From NCBI GenBank assembly GCA_902618385.1, contig CACNAF010000004.1, positions 762 through 64,761 on the forward strand: a DNA stretch of 64,000 nt, read 5' to 3'. This document shows positions 3,264-23,874 of the stretch, piece by piece. The translations under genes and the position numbers were made by a program. The first letter of the stretch is position 1, and the number at the start of each line of letters is the position of its first letter. This DNA comes from an uncultured Alphaproteobacteria bacterium. Its GTDB lineage: Bacteria > Pseudomonadota > Alphaproteobacteria > HIMB59 > GCA-002718135. The notes beneath the pieces were generated by a model. It searched no databases. It was not told where the DNA came from and worked only from the letters and a program-made list of their open reading frames with translations.

Positions 3264-4983
3264 TTTTGGCTAAAATTCTTCTTTGAATATACCATTGCTG
3301 CGCAATTGATAAAATATTGTTCACTGACCAATATAAAACTAAACCAGCTGCAAAACCAGCTAGTACAAAAGTAAATACAAATGGAAGTAATGCAAAAATT
3401 CTAGCCTGTGTTGGATCAGCGGGAGCAGGATTTAGTTTTTGTTGTAACCACATAGTGAAGCCCATAATGATAGGAAGAATACCAATATCAATTATTGAAA
3501 GTATAGGTGGCACATCCCAAGGAACTAATCCAAATATTGTCATTAAGCCTAATGGGTCTGGCGCAGATAGATCATGAATCCATCCATAAAAAGGAGCGTG
3601 ATACATCTCTATCGTAACAAACAACACTTTATACAAAGAGAAGAAAATTGGTATCTGTACTAAAATTGGTAGACAACCCGCAACAGGATTAGCACCCTCT
3701 CTTTTATACAAGGCCATTAGTTCTTGCTGCATTTTTTGTCTGTCATTTGGATATGTTTCTTTTAATCTTTGCATATCAGGCTGAAGTTTTTTCATCTTTG
3801 CCATAGATTTAAAAGATGCTTGTGCCAGTGGGAATAAAATTAAACGCATTAAAATGGTAAAGGCAATTATTGCTAGACCAAAATTACCTGCATAACCAAA
3901 AAACCAATTAATGGCATATGAAACAGGTTTAGTTAAAAAACTAAACCAGCCCCAGTCAATTGCATCAGTAAATCTTGGTATAGAGAGATTTTCATCATAA
4001 GCACTTAAGACATTTAATTTTTTTGCACCCACAAATAATTTTCCGCCGTAAGATATATTTTCACCCGAGTTAATTTTATATATCTGACCAACATAACCTG
4101 CCCTATAGCTATCACGTCCATTATTACCATACCTATAATTGACGTTAATGGATTGGTCAGCATCAGGAATTAAAGCAGACATCCAATATTTGTCTGTAAA
4201 ACCTAACCAACCTCCTTGTGTTTTATTATCGCAAAACTCTTTTTTTGTTTGCATTAATGAATTACAATCATCGGCAATATCATCATAATTTTTTTCCAAT
4301 AATTCGTCGTTTATTAGACTAATTAAACCCTCGTGAAGTATAAAAAAATTAATTGTATCTGGTGTGTTTATTCTTTTGATTAATCTGTATGGAAAAACTT
4401 CAATATCTTCACCACTGTTATTTTCTATTTCCTGTGTAATTGTAAACATATACTCATCATCAACTTGATAGTTGATTTTGAAAGTTATATTTTTATTATT
4501 CGTCCAACTAAGTGTAACAGGGCTTGAGGGGCTTAGAGTGGTAGAGTTAGTTTTCCAATTTGTTTCTAAATCAGGTAGTTCAATGTTAGAATTTTTTAGC
4601 TCTTTCCAACCTGTTTCAATATAATATGGATTAGCAGTCCCATCCGGTAACAAAAGCTGTATATTAGTCGAATCAGGTTCTAAGCTAGTTTTATATTTTG
4701 ATAATATGAGGTCATCTAAAATTGCTCCTTTTAAATTTATAGAACCTTTAATAGATGCATTTTCAAAAATAACTCTGTCGGTTTGAATTAAAGCTTCATC
4801 TCTACTTTGTATTTCTGAAACAACTTGGCTGCTTTGTCCGTCAATGGATGTTGCAGGCTCTAATACTTCATCTTCTTCAAAGGATGTTGTTTGAATTGGT
4901 TGAGTTGGAAATAATAATTGAAAAAAAATAATTATCGCAATTGAAATACCAATAGCCAAATATAAATTTCTTTGCTCGTTCAT
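3256..4983 (-). CDS. yidC: Membrane protein insertase YidC
   Basis: 575 aa. N-terminal TM segment, large periplasmic domain, and C-terminal 60-kDa insertase core (LRLILFPL...[14 protein letters not shown]). Part of the rpmH-rnpA-yidD-yidC synteny. Confidence 0.92.
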
Positions 4984-7231: not shown

Positions 7232-8026
7232 ATGGAAATAAATAAAATTACGAATTTATTGAATCTGGAGCATGTTAAGTTTTTAATATCTATCTTTAAA
7301 GAAAATAATATTGAAATTCGATTAGTAGGAGGATGTATACGAGATGCTCTTCTTGAAAGAGAAATCAAAGATATTGATACAGCAACAACTTTGGAGCCTC
7401 AGGATGTTTTGTCATTACTAAAAGATAACAATATTGAATTTGATGATTTTGCTATTCAATATGGATCTATAATTGCTTATCCTCATAATCGAAAAATACA
7501 AATTACAACTTTACGTGAAGATATTAATCAAATGGGAAGACATACAAATGTAATTTACACCAACAGCTGGAAAAAAGATTCAGCCAGAAGAGATTTTACT
7601 TTCAATGCTTTATATGTCGGAAACAATAATAAACTACATGATTATTACAATGGCCAATCAGATTTAAATGAAAGTAAAATTCGTTTTATTGGTGAAATAG
7701 AGGATAGAATAAAAGAAGATTACTTAAGAATCTATCGATACTTTAGATTTAGAGGTTTATTTAATTTGCCTAAAACATCTTTAAGTGATCAAAAAATTGT
7801 AGAAAAATATATTCACGAATCTTTAGCAGTGTTGACCAACGATGTAATAAGGCAAGAAATATTAAAAATGTTTAATATGTCTTTTCCATTAAATTGTTTT
7901 TACATATCTCATCAAACGTTACAAAAATTTAAATGGGTTGAAATAGTGCAAGAGCATTTCATACGAACAAAATATGATCTTGGATTAAATAAATGTCTGA
8001 ATAAGATTGATAATTTAATAAATTAG
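7232..8026 (+). CDS. cca: tRNA nucleotidyltransferase / poly(A) polymerase family protein, unusually short
   Basis: 264 aa. Class-II NTase motifs are present: LVGGCIRDALL...DIDTAT (A), RRDFTFNAL (B), EDYLRIYRYFRF (D). Little sequence follows the neck region. Confidence 0.75.
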   Translation: MEINKITNLLNLEHVKFLISIFKENNIEIRLVGGCIRDALLEREIKDIDTATTLEPQDVLSLLKDNNIEFDDFAIQYGSIIAYPHNRKIQITTLREDINQMGRHTNVIYTNSWKKDSARRDFTFNALYVGNNNKLHDYYNGQSDLNESKIRFIGEIEDRIKEDYLRIYRYFRFRGLFNLPKTSLSDQKIVEKYIHESLAVLTNDVIRQEILKMFNMSFPLNCFYISHQTLQKFKWVEIVQEHFIRTKYDLGLNKCLNKIDNLIN

Positions 8027-8427
8027 TTTTTAAGTTTACAATTTTCGCACAAACCAAATATTTCTAAATTATGTTTTTTATAATTGAAGTTATTTTTTTC
8101 TGCTTGTTTTGAAAAATAAGAAAACAAATTATTTCCAGTTAGCTCAGTAACACTATCACAGTTTTCACATATCAAAAAAGATGTAGAAGTTTTTGCATTA
8201 CAGCCTTCATGCTTACAAGCAACATATGAATTTCTACTTTCTATTTTATGTACTTTACCAATTTCTATAAGCTTATCTAAAGCTCTATAAACTTGAAGAG
8301 GAGATTTAATTCCTTTTTTTTGAATATCAAAAAGGATTGTATATGCTTTAAGAGGTTCTGATGAGTTTTCTAAAATATCAAGAACTGTTTTCTGGTTTTT
8401 GGTTAAATTTTCTGATGCTAATGCCAT
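8023..8427 (-). CDS. zur: Fur-family zinc uptake regulator
   Basis: Fur-like winged helix plus two CxxC pairs (CENC...CENC). Last gene of the znuC-znuB operon. The track ORF starts at TTG 8442; I prefer ATG 8427 (MALASENL...). Confidence 0.75.
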   Translation of the reverse strand: MALASENLTKNQKTVLDILENSSEPLKAYTILFDIQKKGIKSPLQVYRALDKLIEIGKVHKIESRNSYVACKHEGCNAKTSTSFLICENCDSVTELTGNNLFSYFSKQAEKNNFNYKKHNLEIFGLCENCKLKN

Positions 8428-8449
8428 AATTTTAATTAACAAATAGTTT

Positions 8450-9253
8450 TCATTTTTGCAACTGACCCTTTATCTCTAGAGGAATAAGTGAAATAATAAA
8501 TAATAATAATGCAACTACAATTATAGAAGGCCCTGAAGAAGTATTAATCTCAAGCGAAACAAACAATCCTGCAATTACAGATACGACACCAGCTAAAGTT
8601 GCAATTATAACCATTTGACGAGGACTGCTGCTAATATTTCTTGCAATTGCTGCAGGTATTAAAAGTAAACCAGTTATCAATAAAGCGCCAATCATTTTAA
8701 TAGATAAAGCAATTACTCCTGCCAATAAGAGTGTGAATATAAAATTAGAAACTTCTGGTCGCATTCCTTCTGCTGCTGACAAATCATAATTTACCGTTGC
8801 TGAAAATAAAGATTTCCAAATAAAGTACAAAATCAATAATATTGTAGCACCACCTAAATAAACTATAGTTATATCTTCTACATCAACTGCAAGTATATCT
8901 CCAAATAATAAACCCATAAGGTCAAATCTAATTGATGTAAGAAACCCAATTAATACTAAACCTATAGCAAGTGTAGAGTGAGCAAGTAGACCGAGTAATG
9001 AGTCTCCTGCGAGTTTTGTTCTTTTTTGTAAATTAATTAATAGTAAAGCAACAACAGCTGAAATTATAAAAACTGAAAATGTAATATTAAAGCTAAAAGA
9101 ATAAGCTAAAGTTACACCCAATAATGCCGAGTGAGACAGCGTATCTCCAAAATAGGATAACCTTCTCCAAATTACAAGACATCCTAGAGGTCCGGCAATT
9201 ATTGCAATACCAATGCCAGCTATGAGAGCTCTAGTAAAAAAATCATCAAACAT
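8450..9253 (-). CDS. znuB: Zinc ABC transporter permease
   Basis: 267 aa polytopic membrane protein of the ABC-3 (ZnuB/MntB) type. Sits between znuC and zur. Confidence 0.85.
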   Translation of the reverse strand: MFDDFFTRALIAGIGIAIIAGPLGCLVIWRRLSYFGDTLSHSALLGVTLAYSFSFNITFSVFIISAVVALLLINLQKRTKLAGDSLLGLLAHSTLAIGLVLIGFLTSIRFDLMGLLFGDILAVDVEDITIVYLGGATILLILYFIWKSLFSATVNYDLSAAEGMRPEVSNFIFTLLLAGVIALSIKMIGALLITGLLLIPAAIARNISSSPRQMVIIATLAGVVSVIAGLFVSLEINTSSGPSIIVVALLLFIISLIPLEIKGQLQK

Positions 9254-9995
9254 TATTTGTTACTCTCCCATCTGTTTCATGAGAATGATCATGATTATGT
9301 TGATAAAGTGATAGAGTTGTGGCGTTATGTTCACCAAATAATTCTATGTATGCCGAATTCTTTACAATTGATCTTGGCGTTCCAGAGCAACATATATGAC
9401 CATTTAAGCAAATTACATGATCTGTAGCTGACATAACAAAATGAAGATCATGTGATATCAGTAATATTCCACAATTAAGTGTTGAACAAATTTTTTTAAT
9501 AAGATTATAAAGTGCAATTTCTCCATTAAAATCTACACCTTGAACTGGTTCATCCAAAACAAGTAAGTCTGGTTTTTTTGCGATTGCTCTGGCGATTAAG
9601 ACTCTTTGAAATTCTCCGCCAGATAAATTATGAATATCGTTATAGAGAAGGTTATCTACTCCAGTTAATTTTAAAGCATCAACAATTTCAAGATTATTTA
9701 TATGACTTGTTAATTTCATAAAATCAACGACACGAAGAGGCATTGTCCAATCAATATTAATTTTTTGTGGTACGTAAGCCATTTTAGAAGCAAAGTTTTT
9801 TATTTGCCCTTCATCAGACTTAAGTATCTTAAGTATCATTTTAGCTGAAGTTGTTTTTCCAGAACCATTAGGCCCTATTAGAGTAACAATTTTCCCCTTG
9901 TGAATTTCCAAGCTTATTCCTCGTACAATCCACTTGGATGACTTGTACACACCACAGTTATCTAGTTTAACCAATAAATTATTATTTTCTGCCAT
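9246..9995 (-). CDS. znuC: Zinc ABC transporter ATP-binding protein
   Basis: 249 aa. Walker A GPNGSGKTT, signature LSGGEFQR, Walker B LLVLDEP, and a His-rich C-terminus (HNHDHSHETD). Confidence 0.85.
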   Translation of the reverse strand: MAENNNLLVKLDNCGVYKSSKWIVRGISLEIHKGKIVTLIGPNGSGKTTSAKMILKILKSDEGQIKNFASKMAYVPQKINIDWTMPLRVVDFMKLTSHINNLEIVDALKLTGVDNLLYNDIHNLSGGEFQRVLIARAIAKKPDLLVLDEPVQGVDFNGEIALYNLIKKICSTLNCGILLISHDLHFVMSATDHVICLNGHICCSGTPRSIVKNSAYIELFGEHNATTLSLYQHNHDHSHETDGRVTNNV

Positions 9996-10014: not shown

Positions 10015-10033
10015 AATGTTATATTATAACATT
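10015..10033. promoter_or_regulatory. Zur box in the divergent znuC / znuA promoter region
   Basis: Perfect 19-nt palindrome AATGTTATATTATAACATT. It matches the proteobacterial Zur operator core (GTTATA-N-TATAAC) and lies 41 nt upstream of the znuA ATG. Confidence 0.75.
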
Positions 10034-10073: not shown

Positions 10074-11165
10074 ATGAAACAAATGAATATTTTTCTACAT
10101 GTTTTTAAAATTATCTTGTTTTCAGGAATTCTTGTTGCAACTGTATCTGCTAGAGCAGAACTAAAAGTTGTAACGACTATTAAACCACTTCATTCATTGA
10201 TTGCTAATGTTATGAATGGAATTGGTGAACCTGGACTTATAATTGAAGGAAGCATATCTCCACATAGTTTTACTATGAAACCATCTCATGCAAAAATGCT
10301 TGAAGAAGCAGATATAGTATTTTGGATTGGTGAGAGTATTGAGACATCATTAGAAGAACCTCTGGAGTCAATAGCAAAAAGTGCTGAAGTCGTAGAGTTT
10401 ATGGAAGTTGAAACAATTGCTAAATTAAAATTTAGAGAAGAATCTATATTTGGTGACCACGATGATCATGACGATCACGACGACCATGACGATCATGACG
10501 ACCATGACGATCATGACGACCATGACGATCATGATGACCATGACGATCATGACGATCATGATGACCATGACGATCATGACGATCACGACGATCACGACGA
10601 CCATGACGATCATGATGATCATGACGATCACAGTGGACACGACGACCACGGTCATGCACATGGTGAATTTGATGCTCACATTTGGTTAGATCCAATGAAT
10701 GCTAAAGAAATGGTTCATGAGATTGCTCATGAGTTAGGTGATTTAGATCCTGCCAATAAAGAGAAATATGAAGCAAATGCTGATGCAACAATCAAAGCTT
10801 TAGACCAATTGATAAATGACGTTAGCAAGGATATTAATTCCGATGCAAAATTTGTCGTTTTCCATGACGCCTACCAATACTTTGAAGAAAGATTTGGTGT
10901 AAGAGCTGCAGGAGCTTTAACATTGAATACTGATGTTTTACCTGGTGCAAAGCAAATAGCTGATATTCAGGATGTTATTAAGGATAAGGGAATAAAATGT
11001 ATTTTCTCTGAACCTCAATTTAATCCAAAGATTATTTCAACAATAGCTGAGGATATGAATATCAAAACAGGAGTTTTTGATCCTTTAGGTGCTAACATCG
11101 ATGCTGGTAAGTCACTTTACTTTACGTTGATTAGTAATCTCGGGGACGAGCTTAAAGGCTGTTAA
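10074..11165 (+). CDS. znuA: Zinc ABC transporter substrate-binding protein with a greatly expanded Asp/His loop
   Basis: 363 aa. Signal peptide, cluster-9 SBP fold motifs (TIKPLHSL..., DAHIWLDP, VVFHDAYQYF), and an internal DH(DDH)n tract. Confidence 0.88.
   Translation: MKQMNIFLHVFKIILFSGILVATVSARAELKVVTTIKPLHSLIANVMNGIGEPGLIIEGSISPHSFTMKPSHAKMLEEADIVFWIGESIETSLEEPLESIAKSAEVVEFMEVETIAKLKFREESIFGDHDDHDDHDDHDDHDDHDDHDDHDDHDDHDDHDDHDDHDDHDDHDDHDDHDDHDDHDDHSGHDDHGHAHGEFDAHIWLDPMNAKEMVHEIAHELGDLDPANKEKYEANADATIKALDQLINDVSKDINSDAKFVVFHDAYQYFEERFGVRAAGALTLNTDVLPGAKQIADIQDVIKDKGIKCIFSEPQFNPKIISTIAEDMNIKTGVFDPLGANIDAGKSLYFTLISNLGDELKGC
10455..10661 (+). repeat. In-frame 9-nt (18-nt super-unit) tandem repeat encoding DH(DDH)19 followed by SGHDDHGHAH
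   Basis: The stretch 10455-10631 contains only GAY and CAY codons (59 residues of D/H). Units such as gacgaccatgacgatcat recur with synonymous third-base variation. Confidence 0.95.
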
Positions 11166-11236: not shown

Positions 11237-12208
11237 ATGGAAAATACTTCTCAGGTTCCAGTTACGGTTTTAACAGGTTTTCTTGGAGCTGGAAAAACAA
11301 CACTTTTAAATCGAATTTTAACTGAACAGCATGGACGTAAATACGCTGTCATTGTTAATGAATTTGGTGAGCAGGGAATTGATAATGACCTTGTTGTTGA
11401 TGCTGATGAAGAAGTATTTGAAATGAATAACGGTTGCATTTGTTGCACTGTTAGAGGTGATTTAATTAGAATTCTTAGTGGTTTAATGAAACGTGCTGAC
11501 AAACTAGATGCAATTATAGTTGAAACAACTGGTTTAGCTGATCCAGCCCCAGTTGCTCAGACATTTTTTGTTGATCAAGACGTTGCTGATAGAACAAAAT
11601 TAGATGCAATTGTTACAGTTGCTGATGCTGTTCATCTAAGTTCTCAACTAGTAGATCATCATGAAGCAGAAGAGCAAATTGCTTTTGCTGATGTAATTTT
11701 GTTAAATAAAGTTGAACTTGTTGAAGATAATGACATTGTGAAAATTAATGATCGTATTAGAAAAATAAATCCTTTTGCAAAGATTATTAAAACAACACGT
11801 TGTGATGCACCTCTTGATGAAATCGTAGGCTTAAATGCATTTAGTCTAGATAGAGTATTAGATATTGAACCTGACTTTCTTGAATCAGATCATGATCATG
11901 AACATGATGATGATGTTACTAGTCTATCCTTTGTATCTGATACACCATTAGATATGGATAAGTTTCAAGATTGGTTTGGAAATTTACTTAGGACTAAGGG
12001 CCAGGATATTCTTCGATCAAAAGGCATTTTGAACTTTAAAGGTGAAGAAGAGCGATATGTATTTCAAGGAGTGCATATGCTTATGGATGCTTCACCAATG
12101 GGACCTTGGCCTAAAGGAAAAGATAGAAGTTCTCGAGTAGTATTTATTGGTCGTGATCTTGATAATATGAATCTTAAGGAAGGCTTTGAAAATTGTAAAT
12201 CAGCATGA
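11237..12208 (+). CDS. COG0523-family (CobW/ZigA/YeiR-like) G3E GTPase, putative zinc metallochaperone
   Basis: 323 aa. P-loop GFLGAGKTTLL, the metal-binding CxCC motif (GCICCT), a His/Asp stretch (SDHDHEHDDD) and a CobW C-terminal domain. Next to the znu genes. Confidence 0.85.
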   Translation: MENTSQVPVTVLTGFLGAGKTTLLNRILTEQHGRKYAVIVNEFGEQGIDNDLVVDADEEVFEMNNGCICCTVRGDLIRILSGLMKRADKLDAIIVETTGLADPAPVAQTFFVDQDVADRTKLDAIVTVADAVHLSSQLVDHHEAEEQIAFADVILLNKVELVEDNDIVKINDRIRKINPFAKIIKTTRCDAPLDEIVGLNAFSLDRVLDIEPDFLESDHDHEHDDDVTSLSFVSDTPLDMDKFQDWFGNLLRTKGQDILRSKGILNFKGEEERYVFQGVHMLMDASPMGPWPKGKDRSSRVVFIGRDLDNMNLKEGFENCKSA

Positions 12209-13242
12209 ACGCTGATTTAGAAAAACTTCAAGAATCAAATAAAACTGAACTTGAAAGAAGAGGTTCAATTTTTAATATTGGAGCTCCAGCTACAGAAGCG
12301 GTTACAATTCGTGATCAAATAGCGGTAGGATTTGGAGACGGCACCGTAAGATTTTTTCAATCTGGATCTGATCCTAAAACTGTTAAAGCACATAAGGGTG
12401 TAGTGTTGAGTATGACAAATTATGAAGATCATGTGTTAACGGGAGGAGACGATGGACGTTTTCTAAAAATATCATCTGATGGAAATATTGATGAAATTTT
12501 TAATTTTGGTTCAAAGTGGGTTGACTGTGTAGCTTCTCACAAAGATACTAAAGTTTGTTCATCAGGAAAGACTGTTTATATTTGGACAAAAAACAAGGAT
12601 AAACCTCAAACTTTAGAGCATCAAAGTACTGTTGCTGGATTAGCATTTGACAATAAAGGTAAGCGTCTTGCGGTCTCAAGATACGGTGGAGTAACAGTGT
12701 GGAAACTTAATAATAATAAATGGACAGCATCAAATTTTACCTGGAAAGGATCGCATGGAACTGTAACGTTTAGCCCAGATACAAAATATATTGTAACTGC
12801 AATGCAAGAAAATCAAATTCATGGTTGGCGCATAAATGACAAAGCGGATTTAGCAATGAGAGGTTATCCATCAAAAATTAAAAGTTTTACTTGGGTTGGT
12901 GATACACCGTATTTGGTAACATCTGGATCCAGTGATGCAGTTTGCTGGCCATTTGATGGTAAAGAAGGACCAATGGGGAGAAAGCCAATTGTTGTTGCAA
13001 ACGGTGGTAAAGAACTTGCAACATTTGTTAAAGCACTTAATGGAGAAAAAGCTGTTTTCACCGGTTTTACAGATGGGTCAGTTTTATTAGCAGAAATTGA
13101 TGAAAGCAAAAAACCAATTATGATTAGAAGTTCAACAGGTTCAGAAGTTTCAACAATAGCTATATCTAGTGATAACTCACAAATATTAATTGGCGATATG
13201 AAAGGTTCTATTCTTTTATCATCTTTATGGGCAGACAATTAA
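12205..13242 (+). CDS. WD40/beta-propeller repeat protein
   Basis: 345 aa with repeated ...GG.DG......W / ...S.D... blades (e.g. LTGGDDGRFLKIS, VTSGSSDAVCWPF, LIGDMKGSILLSS). Its ATG overlaps the COG0523 stop (ATGA). Confidence 0.7.
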   Translation: MNADLEKLQESNKTELERRGSIFNIGAPATEAVTIRDQIAVGFGDGTVRFFQSGSDPKTVKAHKGVVLSMTNYEDHVLTGGDDGRFLKISSDGNIDEIFNFGSKWVDCVASHKDTKVCSSGKTVYIWTKNKDKPQTLEHQSTVAGLAFDNKGKRLAVSRYGGVTVWKLNNNKWTASNFTWKGSHGTVTFSPDTKYIVTAMQENQIHGWRINDKADLAMRGYPSKIKSFTWVGDTPYLVTSGSSDAVCWPFDGKEGPMGRKPIVVANGGKELATFVKALNGEKAVFTGFTDGSVLLAEIDESKKPIMIRSSTGSEVSTIAISSDNSQILIGDMKGSILLSSLWADN

Positions 13243-13252
13243 AGGAGAAAAT

Positions 13253-13507
13253 ATGTTTAATCGTAAAACTCAAAATGTTGAAAAAATAAGAAATCTTAAA
13301 CATTTAATTTCCAAGAAATATAAATTACCAGAAAATACTATAATAAGTATTGCTGAGCTCAGTTGTCATGAACCTGATTGTCCACCAATTGAAACTGTAA
13401 TTACTGCAAGAAATGAAGACGGATCAATGAAAAATTGGCGAGTTGCAAAATCAATAGAAGAAATAGAGGAGTCAGATATTAATAATCTAACAAATCACAC
13501 TCATTAA
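13253..13507 (+). CDS. Small conserved-looking hypothetical protein with a CHEPDCPP motif
   Basis: 84 aa. Strong RBS (AAAGGAGAAAAT-ATG) 10 nt after the WD40 stop. Only 2 Cys, in C-x4-C-P-P, and the C-terminus ends NHTH. I recognise no family. Confidence 0.5.
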   Translation: MFNRKTQNVEKIRNLKHLISKKYKLPENTIISIAELSCHEPDCPPIETVITARNEDGSMKNWRVAKSIEEIEESDINNLTNHTH

Positions 13508-13530
13508 ATTATTAAATTTAAAATAATTTA

Positions 13531-13614
13531 TTAACAGCAATCTCCACCTTCACAAGTACAGCAACAGCTACAACTGCAACCACACTTTGGTGGGTTTGGA
13601 TTTTGATTTTTCAT
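13531..13614 (-). CDS. 27-aa cysteine-rich peptide (metallothionein-like), below the ORF-track size cutoff
   Basis: Reverse-strand ATG 13614 to TAA 13531 encodes MKNQNPNPPKCGCSCSCCCTCEGGDCC (9 Cys of 27). AGGT lies 6 nt upstream of the ATG. It fills an otherwise unexplained 147-nt gap and forms a local G+C rise. Confidence 0.55.
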   Translation of the reverse strand: MKNQNPNPPKCGCSCSCCCTCEGGDCC

Positions 13615-13654
13615 AATCATACCTATATATTTTATATAATAATTTAAAATACAT

Positions 13655-14512
13655 ATGAGAAAAGCATTAGAAATTAAACAATGTATGAAGACTTTCGAGG
13701 GTGACGGGATACCTGTAACGAGAGCTTTCCCTGTCCCCGGAATGAGAGAAAACGATCCATTTCTTCTTTTTGATCATTTCGGCCCAATTAATTATGAGCC
13801 AGGAGGTGCAACTGGTGTACCAGCACATCCTCATTGTGGATTTGAGGCAATTACTTATATGCTTGGTGGTGAAGTAGAGCATAGAGACTCATTTGGAGGA
13901 AAAGCAGAAATTGAAACTGGTGATGTACAATGGATGACAACCGGATCAGGTTTAATCCACTCTGAATTAGTAACAGAAAAATTTAAGAAGAGTGGTGGTA
14001 TCATGCAAGGATTACAAATTTGGGTAAATCTTCCACAAAAAAATAAAAAAGTGAAACCTTGGTACCAACATATTAAAAGAAACACTATTCCAACAGTATC
14101 TGAAAATGCAAATATAGAAATTAAAGTTCTTGTGGGTGAAATAAATGGAACCAAATCCAAAGTTCAAACATATTCACCTGTATCAATATTTGATATTCAA
14201 TTTTCAAAACCAGATATGACAAAGTTTAATGTTGATAAAGAACAAAATCTTATGATCTATATTATTGATGGTCAGTTACAGTTTAATGAGCAAGATAAAA
14301 TTGCTAATAAAGGTGATATGATTTATTTTGATCAATCAAGTGATGAGATTCAACTTACATCAATATCAGAAAAAGGATCCTACCTAGTTTTAGCAGGTAA
14401 GCCGCTTAAAGAACCAGTAGCACGTTATGGTCCTTTTGTGGCAAATTCTGAAGGAGAAATCAAGCAAGCAATGATGGACTATCAAGAAGGAAAGATGGGA
14501 AGCTTAGCTTAA
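13655..14512 (+). CDS. Pirin family protein
   Basis: 285 aa. N-terminal cupin with HPHCGFEAITYMLGGEVEHRDS (pirin metal-site motif) and a C-terminal pirin domain (RYGPFVANSEGEIKQAMMDYQ). Confidence 0.88.
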   Translation: MRKALEIKQCMKTFEGDGIPVTRAFPVPGMRENDPFLLFDHFGPINYEPGGATGVPAHPHCGFEAITYMLGGEVEHRDSFGGKAEIETGDVQWMTTGSGLIHSELVTEKFKKSGGIMQGLQIWVNLPQKNKKVKPWYQHIKRNTIPTVSENANIEIKVLVGEINGTKSKVQTYSPVSIFDIQFSKPDMTKFNVDKEQNLMIYIIDGQLQFNEQDKIANKGDMIYFDQSSDEIQLTSISEKGSYLVLAGKPLKEPVARYGPFVANSEGEIKQAMMDYQEGKMGSLA

Positions 14513-23560: not shown

Positions 23561-23583
23561 TTATCTATATTTAATATTATAAC

Positions 23584-23874
23584 ATGGTTGATAGAAACAA
23601 AATACTTTCTGATTTATCAAAATTTGCAGTTGATGCTATGAGCACTTTTTCAGGCGTTAAAGAAGAGATTGAAACAATTGTATCTTTACGAGTTAATAAA
23701 ATAATAAAAAAAATGAATCTTGTTAAAAAAGATGAATTTGATGCACTGAAAAAAATGGTGCAAAAAGTAATGATGGAAAATGAAAAATTTAGAAAAACAT
23801 CTTCAAGAGCAGTAAAATCTAAGAAAAAAACTGTTAAAAAGAAAAAAACTATTAAAAAGAAATCAAAAAGGTAG
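23584..23874 (+). CDS. ubiK: UbiK/BMFP-family accessory factor (coiled coil) with a Lys-rich tail
   Basis: 96 aa. Central ...LVKKDEFDALKKMVQKV... heptad region resembles the BMFP/UbiK family. Family call from memory. Confidence 0.5.
   Translation: MVDRNKILSDLSKFAVDAMSTFSGVKEEIETIVSLRVNKIIKKMNLVKKDEFDALKKMVQKVMMENEKFRKTSSRAVKSKKKTVKKKKTIKKKSKR

What the first reader, a model, noticed from the sequence alone, without database searches (positions are those of the whole stretch)
13531..13614. Unannotated 27-codon ORF encoding a 9-cysteine peptide (metallothionein-like) at the edge of the zinc cluster
The 147-nt gap between 13507 and 13655 is long for this compact genome and no track ORF explains it. 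On the minus strand, ATG(13614)...TAA(13531) reads MKNQNPNPPKCGCSCSCCCTCEGGDCC. A third of the residues are Cys, arranged as CxC, CCC and CC, the spacing used by small eukaryotic/fungal metallothioneins (the Neurospora Cu-MT is about 25 residues). The coding stretch is a local G+C rise made of TGY/GGN/AGY codons, which is unlikely by chance in AT-rich spacer. AGGT sits 6 nt upstream of the ATG. The ORF lies directly downstream of zur-znuBC / znuA / the COG0523 operon. It does not look like the known bacterial SmtA/BmtA type (about 55 aa, with His ligands), so it would be a new and extremely small bacterial metallothionein class. Alternatively it could be a Cys-rich RiPP-like precursor, although no maturase gene is nearby.
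Basis: partly seen in the sequence, partly recalled or inferred. Interest (0 to 1): 0.8.

Follow-up and report, generated by a model that had tools for sequence, protein, structure and literature searches.

The report
Tiny nine-cysteine peptide gene in SAR11
An unannotated 27-codon gene for a peptide that is one-third cysteine is real, is kept intact by selection across dozens of SAR11 (Pelagibacteraceae) species, and always sits at the tail of the zinc-uptake operon, so it is a strong candidate for a new, very small bacterial metal-binding (metallothionein-like) peptide.

Summary
Minus strand 13614..13531 encodes MKNQNPNPPKCGCSCSCCCTCEGGDCC (27 aa, 9 Cys).

It is a real gene:
- 58 species-level Pelagibacteraceae genomes were found through the neighbouring pirin gene, so the sample is unbiased for the ORF. 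In all 58 the ORF is 27 codons long with no indel or stop.
- 20 of 30 variable sites are third codon positions. pN/pS is 0.057 and pS is 0.26, the same range as the neighbouring genes. The other five frames give 0.11-7.9.
- A metagenome scan added about 55 copies.

In every copy the gene is convergent with the 3' end of the znuA operon, either znuA itself or the optional COG0523-WD40-p84(-DUF1636) cassette behind it. The other neighbour varies (pirin or murJ). About half the copies carry their own hairpin plus U-run terminator overlapping the last codons.

No Pfam, NCBIfam, PDB or literature match exists. An exhaustive HMMER search of 1.84 billion representatives found only mis-called, N-extended versions of the same peptide. 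No RiPP maturase lies within 10 kb, and no Zur box lies upstream of the gene.

The best reading is a cytosolic metal-thiolate peptide tied to zinc homeostasis. Coding status and synteny are shown. Metal binding and regulation are inferred. The family is lineage-restricted: two other znuA loci lack it.

The parts
13531..13614 (-). Coding sequence of the 27-aa, 9-Cys peptide (27 codons plus TAA): MKNQNPNPPKCGCSCSCCCTCEGGDCC
   Evidence: Searches give the sequence. Searches give 58 unbiased genome loci with no indel or stop, pN/pS 0.057 and pS 0.256. One search gives 111 copies in which 25 of 38 variable sites are third codon positions (P = 4e-5).
13612..13614 (-). Start codon (ATG). It is the conserved initiation site.
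   Evidence: this codon is ATG in 104 copies, GTG in 3, TTG in 3 and ATA in 1 of 111, so it is almost only replaced by other start codons. The upstream ATG at 13618-13620 is not conserved.
13621..13624 (-). AGGT, 6 nt upstream of the start. It is either a possible weak ribosome-binding site or part of a -10-like TATAGG box.
   Evidence: TATAGGT is conserved in pirin-type copies but absent from most murJ-type copies. Its function is unresolved.
13615..13654 (.). 40-nt A+T-rich divergent spacer between the peptide gene and pirin. It should hold the peptide promoter, which was not identified.
   Evidence: The consensus scan found no minus-strand promoter here. There is no Zur box. G+C is 0.10.
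13508..13530 (.). 23-nt spacer between the convergent stop codons of the 84-aa ORF and the peptide gene
   Evidence: Only a weak A/U hairpin forms here in the window type (third sequence). The G+C hairpin seen in znuA-adjacent copies is absent.
10074..11165 (+). znuA (periplasmic zinc-binding protein). It is the gene, or the head of the operon, whose 3' end the peptide gene always faces.
   Evidence: Pfam ZnuA E = 2.5e-58. The downstream neighbour of the peptide gene is znuA in 39 metagenome loci and the WD40/p84 cassette in 14. One search shows the same for the genome loci.
11237..13507 (+). Optional cassette between znuA and the peptide gene: COG0523 GTPase (11237-12208), WD40 protein (12205-13242) and an 84-aa ORF with no family (13253-13507)
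   Evidence: Pfam results. The cassette is present in architectures A and B and absent in architecture C. Some relatives add a DUF1636 gene.
8023..9995 (-). zur (8023-8442), znuB (8450-9253) and znuC (9246-9995)
   Evidence: Pfam FUR, ABC-3 and ABC_tran.
10016..10032 (+). Zur box ATGTTATATTATAACAT in the znuC/znuA divergent spacer. It is the only good one in the window.
13655..14512 (+). Pirin-family gene, the divergent neighbour in this lineage. It is not a conserved partner: other lineages have murJ here.
   Evidence: Pfam Pirin and Pirin_C. Searches show murJ in this position.

Best explanation
The ORF is a genuine, independently transcribed gene for a 27-residue cytosolic peptide. Its C-terminal 17 residues carry nine cysteines, with no His and no aromatic residues, and would fold around metal ions as a metal-thiolate cluster. 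It would therefore be a minimal metallothionein-like peptide.

Nine thiolates equal the ligand count of an M(II)3Cys9 cluster, such as the beta-domain of mammalian metallothionein, or of a Cu(I)4-6 cluster (my own knowledge, not tested here).

Because the gene is always placed tail-to-tail with the znuA zinc-uptake operon, its most likely role is buffering, banking or handing on Zn(II). It may also sequester Cd(II) or Cu(I) that enter with zinc.

One possible regulatory logic, which is inference only: when Zur releases znuA under zinc starvation, read-through from znuA runs antisense into the peptide gene and lowers its expression. When zinc is sufficient and znuA is off, the peptide is made.

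Shown: coding status, purifying selection, conserved synteny, a gene-specific terminator in half the copies, and no homology to any known family.
Inferred: metal binding, metal specificity, cytosolic location and regulation.
For: (1) Coding.
- 58 species-representative genomes, retrieved through the pirin gene, all keep 27 codons with no indel or stop.
- 20 of 30 variable sites are third positions.
- pN/pS is 0.057 with pS 0.256, against 0.03-0.13 for seven neighbouring genes. This is the lowest value of all six frames.
- TGT/TGC, AGT/AGC, CCN and GGN alternate freely while the residues stay fixed.
- The start codon is replaced almost only by GTG or TTG.

(2) Composition.
- 33% Cys against 0.95% in neighbouring proteins.
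- CxC, CCC and CC motifs; no His, Phe, Tyr or Trp; no hydrophobic segment or signal peptide.

(3) Synteny.
- In all genome loci, in all 53 metagenome loci that have a downstream flank, and in L265/L266, the gene is convergent with the end of the znuA operon.
- This holds whether 0, 3 or 4 accessory genes (COG0523, WD40, p84, DUF1636) follow znuA.
- The 5' neighbour switches between pirin and murJ.

(4) Independent unit.
- In znuA-adjacent copies the last six codons plus the downstream sequence fold into a hairpin of -24 kcal/mol (z = -4) followed by UUUUU. The mean MFE is -20.5 kcal/mol in 53 copies.

(5) Precedent.
- In the oceanic cyanobacterium Synechococcus WH8102, one Zur represses znuABC and activates the metallothionein gene bmtA to bank zinc (PMC9337993).
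Against: - No metal-binding data exist.
- There is no sequence homology to any metallothionein family: Pfam and NCBIfam gave no hit at E <= 10, and PDB gave none.
- The match to Neurospora Cu-MT is not significant.
- No Zur box or other recognisable metal-sensor site lies upstream.
- No promoter was identified.
- The nine Cys are packed into 17 residues with CCC and CC runs. That is tighter than in characterised Zn-thioneins and looks more like Cu(I)-thioneins, so zinc may not be the cognate metal.
- SAR11 gene order is generally conserved, so synteny alone is weaker evidence of function than in other bacteria.
- The sampled family is phylogenetically shallow: the znuA C-terminus is 86-99% identical among carriers.
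- Two other znuA loci lack the gene (L267 and L268).
- SAR11 depends on external reduced sulfur (my own knowledge), which makes a Cys-rich peptide costly.
Confidence: 0.55

Rival explanations
1. It is a small regulatory or chaperone peptide of the zinc system rather than a store. The Cys-rich tail would sense or carry one or a few metal ions and act on ZnuABC, Zur or COG0523-type metallochaperones. This would be analogous in logic to the small protein MntS in E. coli manganese homeostasis (my own knowledge).
For: Same synteny evidence as the best explanation. Size and solubility fit a small modulator. In many genomes the gene sits next to a COG0523 metallochaperone cassette.
Against: Many carriers lack the COG0523 cassette entirely (architecture C and the murJ type), so COG0523 cannot be the obligatory partner. 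Nine invariant Cys are more than a sensing site needs. No partner can be inferred from sequence.
Confidence: 0.15
2. It is a thiol-rich peptide whose role is not primarily metal handling, for example a redox or electrophile buffer, an Fe-S-binding micro-protein or a reduced-sulfur reserve.
For: Extreme Cys content. There is no detectable metal-responsive operator. In this lineage the divergent neighbour is a pirin, a family annotated by one source as a redox-sensitive bicupin.
Against: The pirin linkage is not conserved, since murJ replaces it. The znuA linkage is invariant. A 27-aa peptide is an inefficient sulfur store. The CxC/CCC/CC spacing is not that of known Fe-S motifs (my own knowledge).
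Confidence: 0.1
3. It is a RiPP precursor or secreted metallophore. MKNQNPNPPK would be a short leader and the Cys-rich core would be modified and exported, as with methanobactin or ranthipeptide/SCIFF-type peptides, perhaps to capture zinc for ZnuA.
For: It is a short peptide with a Cys-rich C-terminal core. It lies next to a metal-uptake ABC system.
Against: No radical-SAM, MbnB/C, YcaO, lanthipeptide or peptidase-ABC exporter gene lies within about 10 kb on either side. None of the alternative flanks (pirin, murJ, trpS, znuA, DUF1636) is a maturase. A 10-residue leader is very short. Free thiols would oxidise in oxic seawater.
Confidence: 0.06
4. It is not translated. The conserved stretch would be an RNA or DNA element, such as a bidirectional terminator or an antisense RNA for the znuA operon, and the ORF would be incidental. 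Alternatively it is a Cys-codon leader peptide for attenuation.
For: The 3' end of the ORF is part of a strong hairpin in half the copies. The element sits between convergent genes.
Against: Substitutions are concentrated at third codon positions, and synonymous sites evolve as fast as in neighbouring genes (pS 0.256). A sequence or structure element would constrain all positions. The hairpin is absent in the window type, yet the peptide is unchanged. There is no Rfam match. No gene lies downstream on the same strand, so there is nothing for a leader peptide to attenuate.
Confidence: 0.03

Closest known systems
Bacterial metallothioneins of the BmtA/SmtA family (Pfam PF02069), including Zur-activated bmtA of marine Synechococcus WH8102 (PMC9337993)
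   Same: Small, Cys-rich and cytosolic. Genetically or regulatorily tied to the Zur/znuABC zinc system of an oligotrophic-ocean bacterium. The proposed role is zinc buffering or banking.
   Different: BmtA is about 55 aa and folds as a zinc finger around a Zn4Cys9His2 cluster. This peptide is 27 aa, has no His and gives no HMM match. No Zur box precedes it. The link to znuA here is positional (convergent), whereas the Zur link of bmtA was shown by experiment.
Fungal copper-thioneins of the Neurospora crassa / Agaricus type (about 25 aa, 7 Cys; sequence recalled from memory)
   Same: Comparable length. Shares CGCS and CSCS motifs. No aromatic residues or His. A single small cluster domain.
   Different: Eukaryotic. 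The similarity is not significant (BLASTP E = 0.12 for one pairwise comparison). This peptide has 9 Cys compressed into 17 residues with CCC and a C-terminal CC, plus a Cys-free Asn/Pro-rich N-terminal half.
Beta-domain of vertebrate metallothionein (M(II)3Cys9 cluster; established knowledge)
   Same: Nine cysteines in about 30 residues, enough for a three-metal thiolate cluster.
   Different: No homology (Pfam Metallothio not hit). The Cys spacing differs. The vertebrate domain is part of a two-domain protein.
MymT of Mycobacterium tuberculosis and the Pseudomonas metallothioneins (PMC7387436)
   Same: They are lineage-restricted bacterial Cys-rich metal-sequestering proteins that were found late because they are small.
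   Different: MymT is about 53 aa and copper-induced. The Pseudomonas MTs belong to the BmtA type. No sequence relationship was detected by HMMER against 1.84 billion representatives.
Cys-rich RiPP precursors (methanobactin MbnA, SCIFF/ranthipeptides)
   Same: A short peptide with a Cys-rich C-terminal core.
   Different: Those are always encoded next to their maturases. None is found here in any of the genomic contexts.

Membership tests
Metallothionein (phenomenological class) | Low molecular mass (below about 10 kDa) | tested here: met
   27 aa, and always 27 codons in 111 copies.
Metallothionein (phenomenological class) | High Cys content (about 15-35%) in CxC, CC and CxxC motifs | tested here: met
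   9 of 27 residues (33%), arranged CxCxCxCCCxC-x4-CC. All nine are conserved, with a single C11F exception among the 58 unbiased genome loci.
Metallothionein (phenomenological class) | Few or no aromatic residues and, in the classical definition, no His | tested here: met
   No F, Y, W or H in the sequence.
Metallothionein (phenomenological class) | High metal content in metal-thiolate clusters | not testable with these tools
   This needs the peptide and metal titration with ESI-MS, UV, CD or ICP-MS.
Metallothionein (phenomenological class) | Expression or phenotype responsive to metal supply | not testable with these tools
   No Zur box or other operator was found. Expression data were not available.
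BmtA/SmtA bacterial metallothionein (PF02069) | Match to the family profile; about 55 aa zinc-finger fold | tested here: not met
   hmmscan against Pfam and NCBIfam at E <= 10 gave no family. The length is 27 aa.
BmtA/SmtA bacterial metallothionein (PF02069) | His ligands in the cluster (Cys9His2) | tested here: not met
   No His in any of the 18 distinct peptide variants.
Eukaryotic metallothionein families in Pfam (vertebrate, fungal, plant and others) | Match to any family profile | tested here: not met
   No Pfam hit at E <= 10. The pairwise comparison with N. crassa Cu-MT gave E = 0.12.
RiPP precursor (methanobactin / SCIFF-ranthipeptide / lanthipeptide) | Maturase gene(s) encoded next to the precursor | tested here: not met
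   Neighbours within about 10 kb are housekeeping or zinc-uptake genes. The alternative contexts (murJ, trpS, znuA, DUF1636) contain no maturase.
RiPP precursor (methanobactin / SCIFF-ranthipeptide / lanthipeptide) | Leader peptide with a recognition sequence, and a dedicated exporter or protease | tested here: inconclusive
   The N-terminal 10 residues are conserved but very short. No exporter is nearby. An exporter encoded elsewhere cannot be excluded.
Attenuation leader peptide | Located upstream of, and on the same strand as, the regulated genes | tested here: not met
   The next gene downstream is always on the opposite strand.
Zur regulon member | Zur box overlapping its promoter | tested here: not met
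   The only good box in the window is at 10016-10032. The best matches within 200 nt upstream of the peptide gene in 39 loci have 4-7 mismatches, equal to shuffled background.

The most novel reading that the evidence does not exclude
SAR11, the most abundant bacterial lineage of the surface ocean, makes a previously unseen 27-residue metallothionein, the smallest in any bacterium and unrelated to all known MT families. It is hard-wired to the zinc-uptake locus, and its expression is set inversely to znuA by convergent transcription rather than by a dedicated sensor. The peptide would then be a significant intracellular sink for Zn, Cd or Cu in oligotrophic seawater, and a sulfur-costly one in an organism that cannot reduce sulfate.
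Probability: 0.4. Interest if true: 0.85.

Novelty: new variant of a known kind. Interest (0 to 1): 0.74.

Why it matters
Only a few bacterial metallothionein types are known. According to PMC7387436, only SmtA and MymT had been studied functionally before the Pseudomonas work. None of the papers searched reports a metallothionein for SAR11.

A conserved nine-cysteine peptide welded to the znuA locus would add a new and extremely small family. It would give SAR11 an intracellular metal buffer comparable in logic to the Zur-bmtA system of marine Synechococcus (PMC9337993). It would also bear on how zinc, cadmium and copper are partitioned in the oligotrophic ocean.

The case is also a clear example of a gene that standard annotation misses because it is below the length cut-off. 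The 15-billion-protein collection holds only mis-called, N-extended versions.

The hypothesis can be tested directly. The peptide can be synthesised chemically, and cultured SAR11 strains exist.

Tried and rejected
A 40-aa stop-to-stop extension was used instead.
- The generic Cys pattern CxCxCxCCCxC scanned in viral contigs returned only simple TGY repeats, which is pure noise. A specific pattern found nothing in viral contigs, so the gene is not phage-borne in that collection.
- tblastn against plasmids found no match.
- Rfam found no family anywhere in the window.
- Consensus promoter and terminator scans found no minus-strand promoter for the gene, and missed the two-part hairpin that folding reveals. 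The promoter, and whether the mRNA is leaderless, remain unresolved. A TATAG[A/G]T motif occurs 13-28 nt upstream in 49 of 60 distinct upstream sequences, but its role is unclear.
- Zur-box scans upstream of the gene were negative.
- I first took the murJ-type contigs to be a zinc-independent context. One search showed that the gene downstream in those contigs is znuA, so that idea was dropped.
- Pirin as a functional partner was rejected because murJ replaces it in other lineages.
- Structure prediction was not attempted. The peptide is below the 30-aa limit, and AlphaFold does not model metal clusters.
- Distant pirin loci (L056, L059-L080) do not carry the gene next to pirin. Most of them do not include a znuA 3' end, so they say little about its presence elsewhere in those genomes.

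Full report

Yes. On the minus strand, ATG 13614 to TAA 13531 reads MKNQNPNPPKCGCSCSCCCTCEGGDCC*. The ORF lies in the 147-nt gap between an 84-aa ORF that ends at 13507 and a pirin gene that starts at 13655.

AGGT lies 6 nt upstream of the ATG. A second in-frame ATG lies two codons further up, at 13620.

The ORF has 40.5% G+C. Its two flanking spacers have 0% and 10%, and the window has 30.5%. Cys is 0.95% of 18 neighbouring proteins but 33% of this peptide. Markov-simulated windows give 0.03 ORFs of this kind, against one observed.

Pfam confirms the context:
- minus strand: zur (8023-8442), znuB and znuC;
- plus strand: znuA (10074-11165), a COG0523 GTPase, a WD40 protein and an 84-aa ORF with no family;
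- then the small ORF on the minus strand, followed by pirin, a SpoU methylase and the cytochrome bc1 genes.

A perfect Zur box (ATGTTATATTATAACAT) sits at 10016-10032 between znuC and znuA. The neighbouring proteins are named 'Pelagibacteraceae bacterium' by NCBI, so the organism is SAR11.

**2. Is it a gene?**

I retrieved 80 loci from species-representative genomes using the pirin protein as bait. The sample is therefore unbiased with respect to the small ORF.

Every locus with pirin at 90% identity or more and with an upstream flank carries the ORF: 58 intact copies plus one with a 1-nt deletion (L050).

All 58 intact copies have exactly 27 codons. Of 30 variable nucleotide sites, 20 are third codon positions.

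Nei-Gojobori proportions are pS = 0.256 and pN = 0.0147, a ratio of 0.057. The other five frames give 0.11 to 7.9. Seven neighbouring genes in the same genomes give 0.03-0.13, with pS of 0.12-0.26. Synonymous sites therefore drift as fast as in ordinary genes while the amino-acid sequence is held. This is the signature of translation, not of an RNA or DNA element.

The upstream ATG is not conserved (GIIM, GEIM, GVIM). The codon at 13614 is ATG in 104 copies, GTG in 3, TTG in 3 and ATA in 1 of 111. That fixes the start.

A metagenome scan with the pattern CGCxCxCCCxCEGG returned 61 stretches, of which 55 belong to the family. The positions the pattern left free are constant in these copies, apart from the D/G alternative at residue 25. 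These are S14, S16, T20, the C-terminal CC, the stop, and the length and character of the N-terminal ten residues.

Across all 111 full-length copies there are 54 distinct nucleotide sequences but only 18 peptide variants. 25 of 38 variable sites are third positions (binomial P = 4e-5).

Three copies look defective:
- the L050 frameshift;
- a nonsense codon 4 in L246;
- C11F plus E22K in L052.

**3. What is conserved around it?**

The genome loci show three architectures:
- A: znuA-COG0523-WD40-p84 facing the peptide gene, as in the window;
- B: the same, plus about 500 nt holding a DUF1636 gene (Pfam E = 7e-26);
- C: znuA directly facing the peptide gene, with no cassette.

In the metagenome loci the gene downstream of the peptide gene is always on the opposite strand. 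It is znuA in 39 loci, the WD40/p84 cassette in 14, and DUF1636 in one. The upstream divergent gene is pirin in 16 loci and murJ in 15 (searches show the murJ-trpS context).

The one constant is therefore the tail-to-tail position at the end of the znuA operon. Pirin is not a conserved partner.

In znuA-adjacent copies, the last six codons (GGTGGAGGGTGTTGTTAG) pair with the downstream sequence AACACCC...TTCCACC. This forms a hairpin of -24 kcal/mol (z = -4) followed by UUUUU. The mean MFE is -20.5 kcal/mol in 53 copies with Gly25 (codon GGG). It is -8.4 kcal/mol in copies with Asp25, such as the window. The gene therefore has its own intrinsic terminator in about half the family. The D/G polymorphism at residue 25 tracks that RNA structure.

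No Zur box lies within 200 nt upstream of the gene. The best matches have 4-7 mismatches, equal to shuffled sequence. The same loci contain 0-1-mismatch boxes in the znuC/znuA spacer, which serves as a positive control.

The promoter was not identified.

**4. How broad is the family, and is it known?**

- The exact 27-aa and 29-aa peptides, and seven other correct-length variants, are absent from a collection of about 15 billion proteins. That collection may have a length floor.
- A word-indexed search and an exhaustive HMMER search of 1.84 billion representatives found only eight or nine entries. All but one are the same peptide with a spurious N-terminal extension or the L050 frameshift. The exception is an unrelated repeat protein.
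- Pfam, NCBIfam, PDB, plasmids and viral contigs gave nothing.
- No paper in the library holds the motif or links a metallothionein to SAR11.

The carriers are a moderately shallow clade: the last 110 residues of znuA are 86-99% identical among them. Two other znuA loci, L267 (27% G+C, CIA30 downstream) and L268 (a 1.1-Mb contig with a second FUR gene downstream), have no such ORF. More distant pirin loci show none next to pirin.

The family is therefore abundant in GOS, Tara and JGI marine data but lineage-restricted, as far as an exact-core pattern can tell.

**5. What does it do?**

The peptide has no signal peptide, no hydrophobic stretch, no His and no aromatic residues. It has nine Cys in 17 residues, arranged as CxC, CCC and CC. 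These are the sequence criteria of the metallothionein class.

Nine thiolates equal the ligand set of an M(II)3Cys9 cluster (established knowledge, not tested here).

The peptide's invariable position at the zinc-uptake locus, whatever else changes around it, points to zinc homeostasis. The open-ocean cyanobacterium Synechococcus WH8102 offers a precedent: its Zur represses znuABC and activates the metallothionein gene bmtA, letting the cell bank zinc (PMC9337993).

I therefore favour a minimal metal-thiolate peptide that buffers or hands on Zn(II), or traps Cd or Cu(I). My confidence is about 0.55.

Because no operator is visible, one possibility is inverse coupling to znuA through convergent transcription. 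That is inference only.

Rival explanations:
- A regulatory or chaperone micro-protein of the zinc system (0.15).
- A thiol, redox, Fe-S or sulfur role (0.10).
- A RiPP or metallophore precursor (0.06). No maturase or exporter lies within 10 kb or in any alternative context.
- A non-translated element or a leader peptide (0.03). This is contradicted by the codon-position pattern and by the absence of any same-strand downstream gene.

**6. Comparison with known families**

By the phenomenological definition, the peptide meets every sequence-level criterion of a metallothionein. The defining chemical criterion, metal-thiolate clusters, cannot be tested here.

It is not a member of BmtA/SmtA: there is no profile match, no His and it is half the length. 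It is not a member of any Pfam metallothionein family. Its likeness to the 25-residue Neurospora Cu-MT is compositional (E = 0.12).

It is best described as a candidate new family within a known functional kind.

**7. Verdict**

Interest is high. An overlooked, strongly constrained, sulfur-expensive micro-gene in a streamlined genome of the ocean's most abundant bacterium bears on trace-metal biology and can be tested with a synthetic peptide.

Noticed in passing
window 13253-13507 (+): An 84-aa ORF with no Pfam or NCBIfam family is the last gene of the znuA-COG0523-WD40 operon. It carries a CHEPDCPP motif. The exact sequence occurs on 935 contigs and is annotated only as hypothetical. pN/pS is 0.12, so it is a real gene of unknown function in a zinc context.
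   Followed up: partly
window 12205-13242 (+): A WD40 beta-propeller protein is translationally coupled to the COG0523 GTPase (ATGA overlap at 12205-12208) inside a Zur-type operon. This is an unusual partner for a metallochaperone. The three-gene cassette is present or absent as a block between znuA and the peptide gene.
   Followed up: partly
L220 (metagenome) and genome loci of architecture B (for example L004 ~3380-3877): Some relatives carry an extra DUF1636 gene (a Cys-containing predicted metal-binding protein; Pfam E = 7e-26) between the 84-aa ORF and the peptide gene. It is in the znuA orientation.
   Followed up: partly
L257 ~3770-3830, L255 and L216 (murJ-type loci), about 60-110 nt upstream of the peptide start: The murJ-peptide spacer holds an inverted repeat followed by a T-run. 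It is CCCAATTAGGTTATAAAATACCTAATCTATTA in some loci and CCCAATTTAGTTGAAAAGCACTGAATCTATTGTTTTTT in others. The arms differ between lineages but stay complementary in part. It could be a small RNA or a terminator-like element. It is not present in the window.
   Followed up: no
L267 ~3465-3510: In a 27% G+C relative that lacks the peptide gene, znuA is followed by a perfect palindrome, AAATTTCACCTT-GATAA-AAGGTGAAATTT. One arm matches the sequence flanking the peptide-gene hairpin in carriers. This may be a trace of gain or loss of the gene.
   Followed up: no
window ~16164 (+), inside the cytochrome b gene: An out-of-frame stretch within cytb translates to a Cys-rich segment (8 Cys in 20 residues) that is conserved across loci only because cytb is conserved. 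This shows that Cys-rich frames alone are not evidence of a gene.
   Followed up: yes
znuA, window 10074-11165, and homologues P0071-P0190: The His/Asp-rich loop of ZnuA varies greatly in length between close relatives. Proteins range from 307 to 454 aa, with long HDDHDD repeats in some. This depresses the apparent identity of otherwise very similar proteins.
   Followed up: no
window 23569-23585 (+): A Zur-box-like sequence with 2 mismatches (ATTTAATATTATAACAT) ends just before the ATG of a BMFP-family ORF (23584-23874). The number of such matches is at chance level for the window.
   Followed up: no
window 1-64000: The Rfam gathering-threshold scan found no RNA family at all in 64 kb, not even a tRNA.
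   Followed up: no
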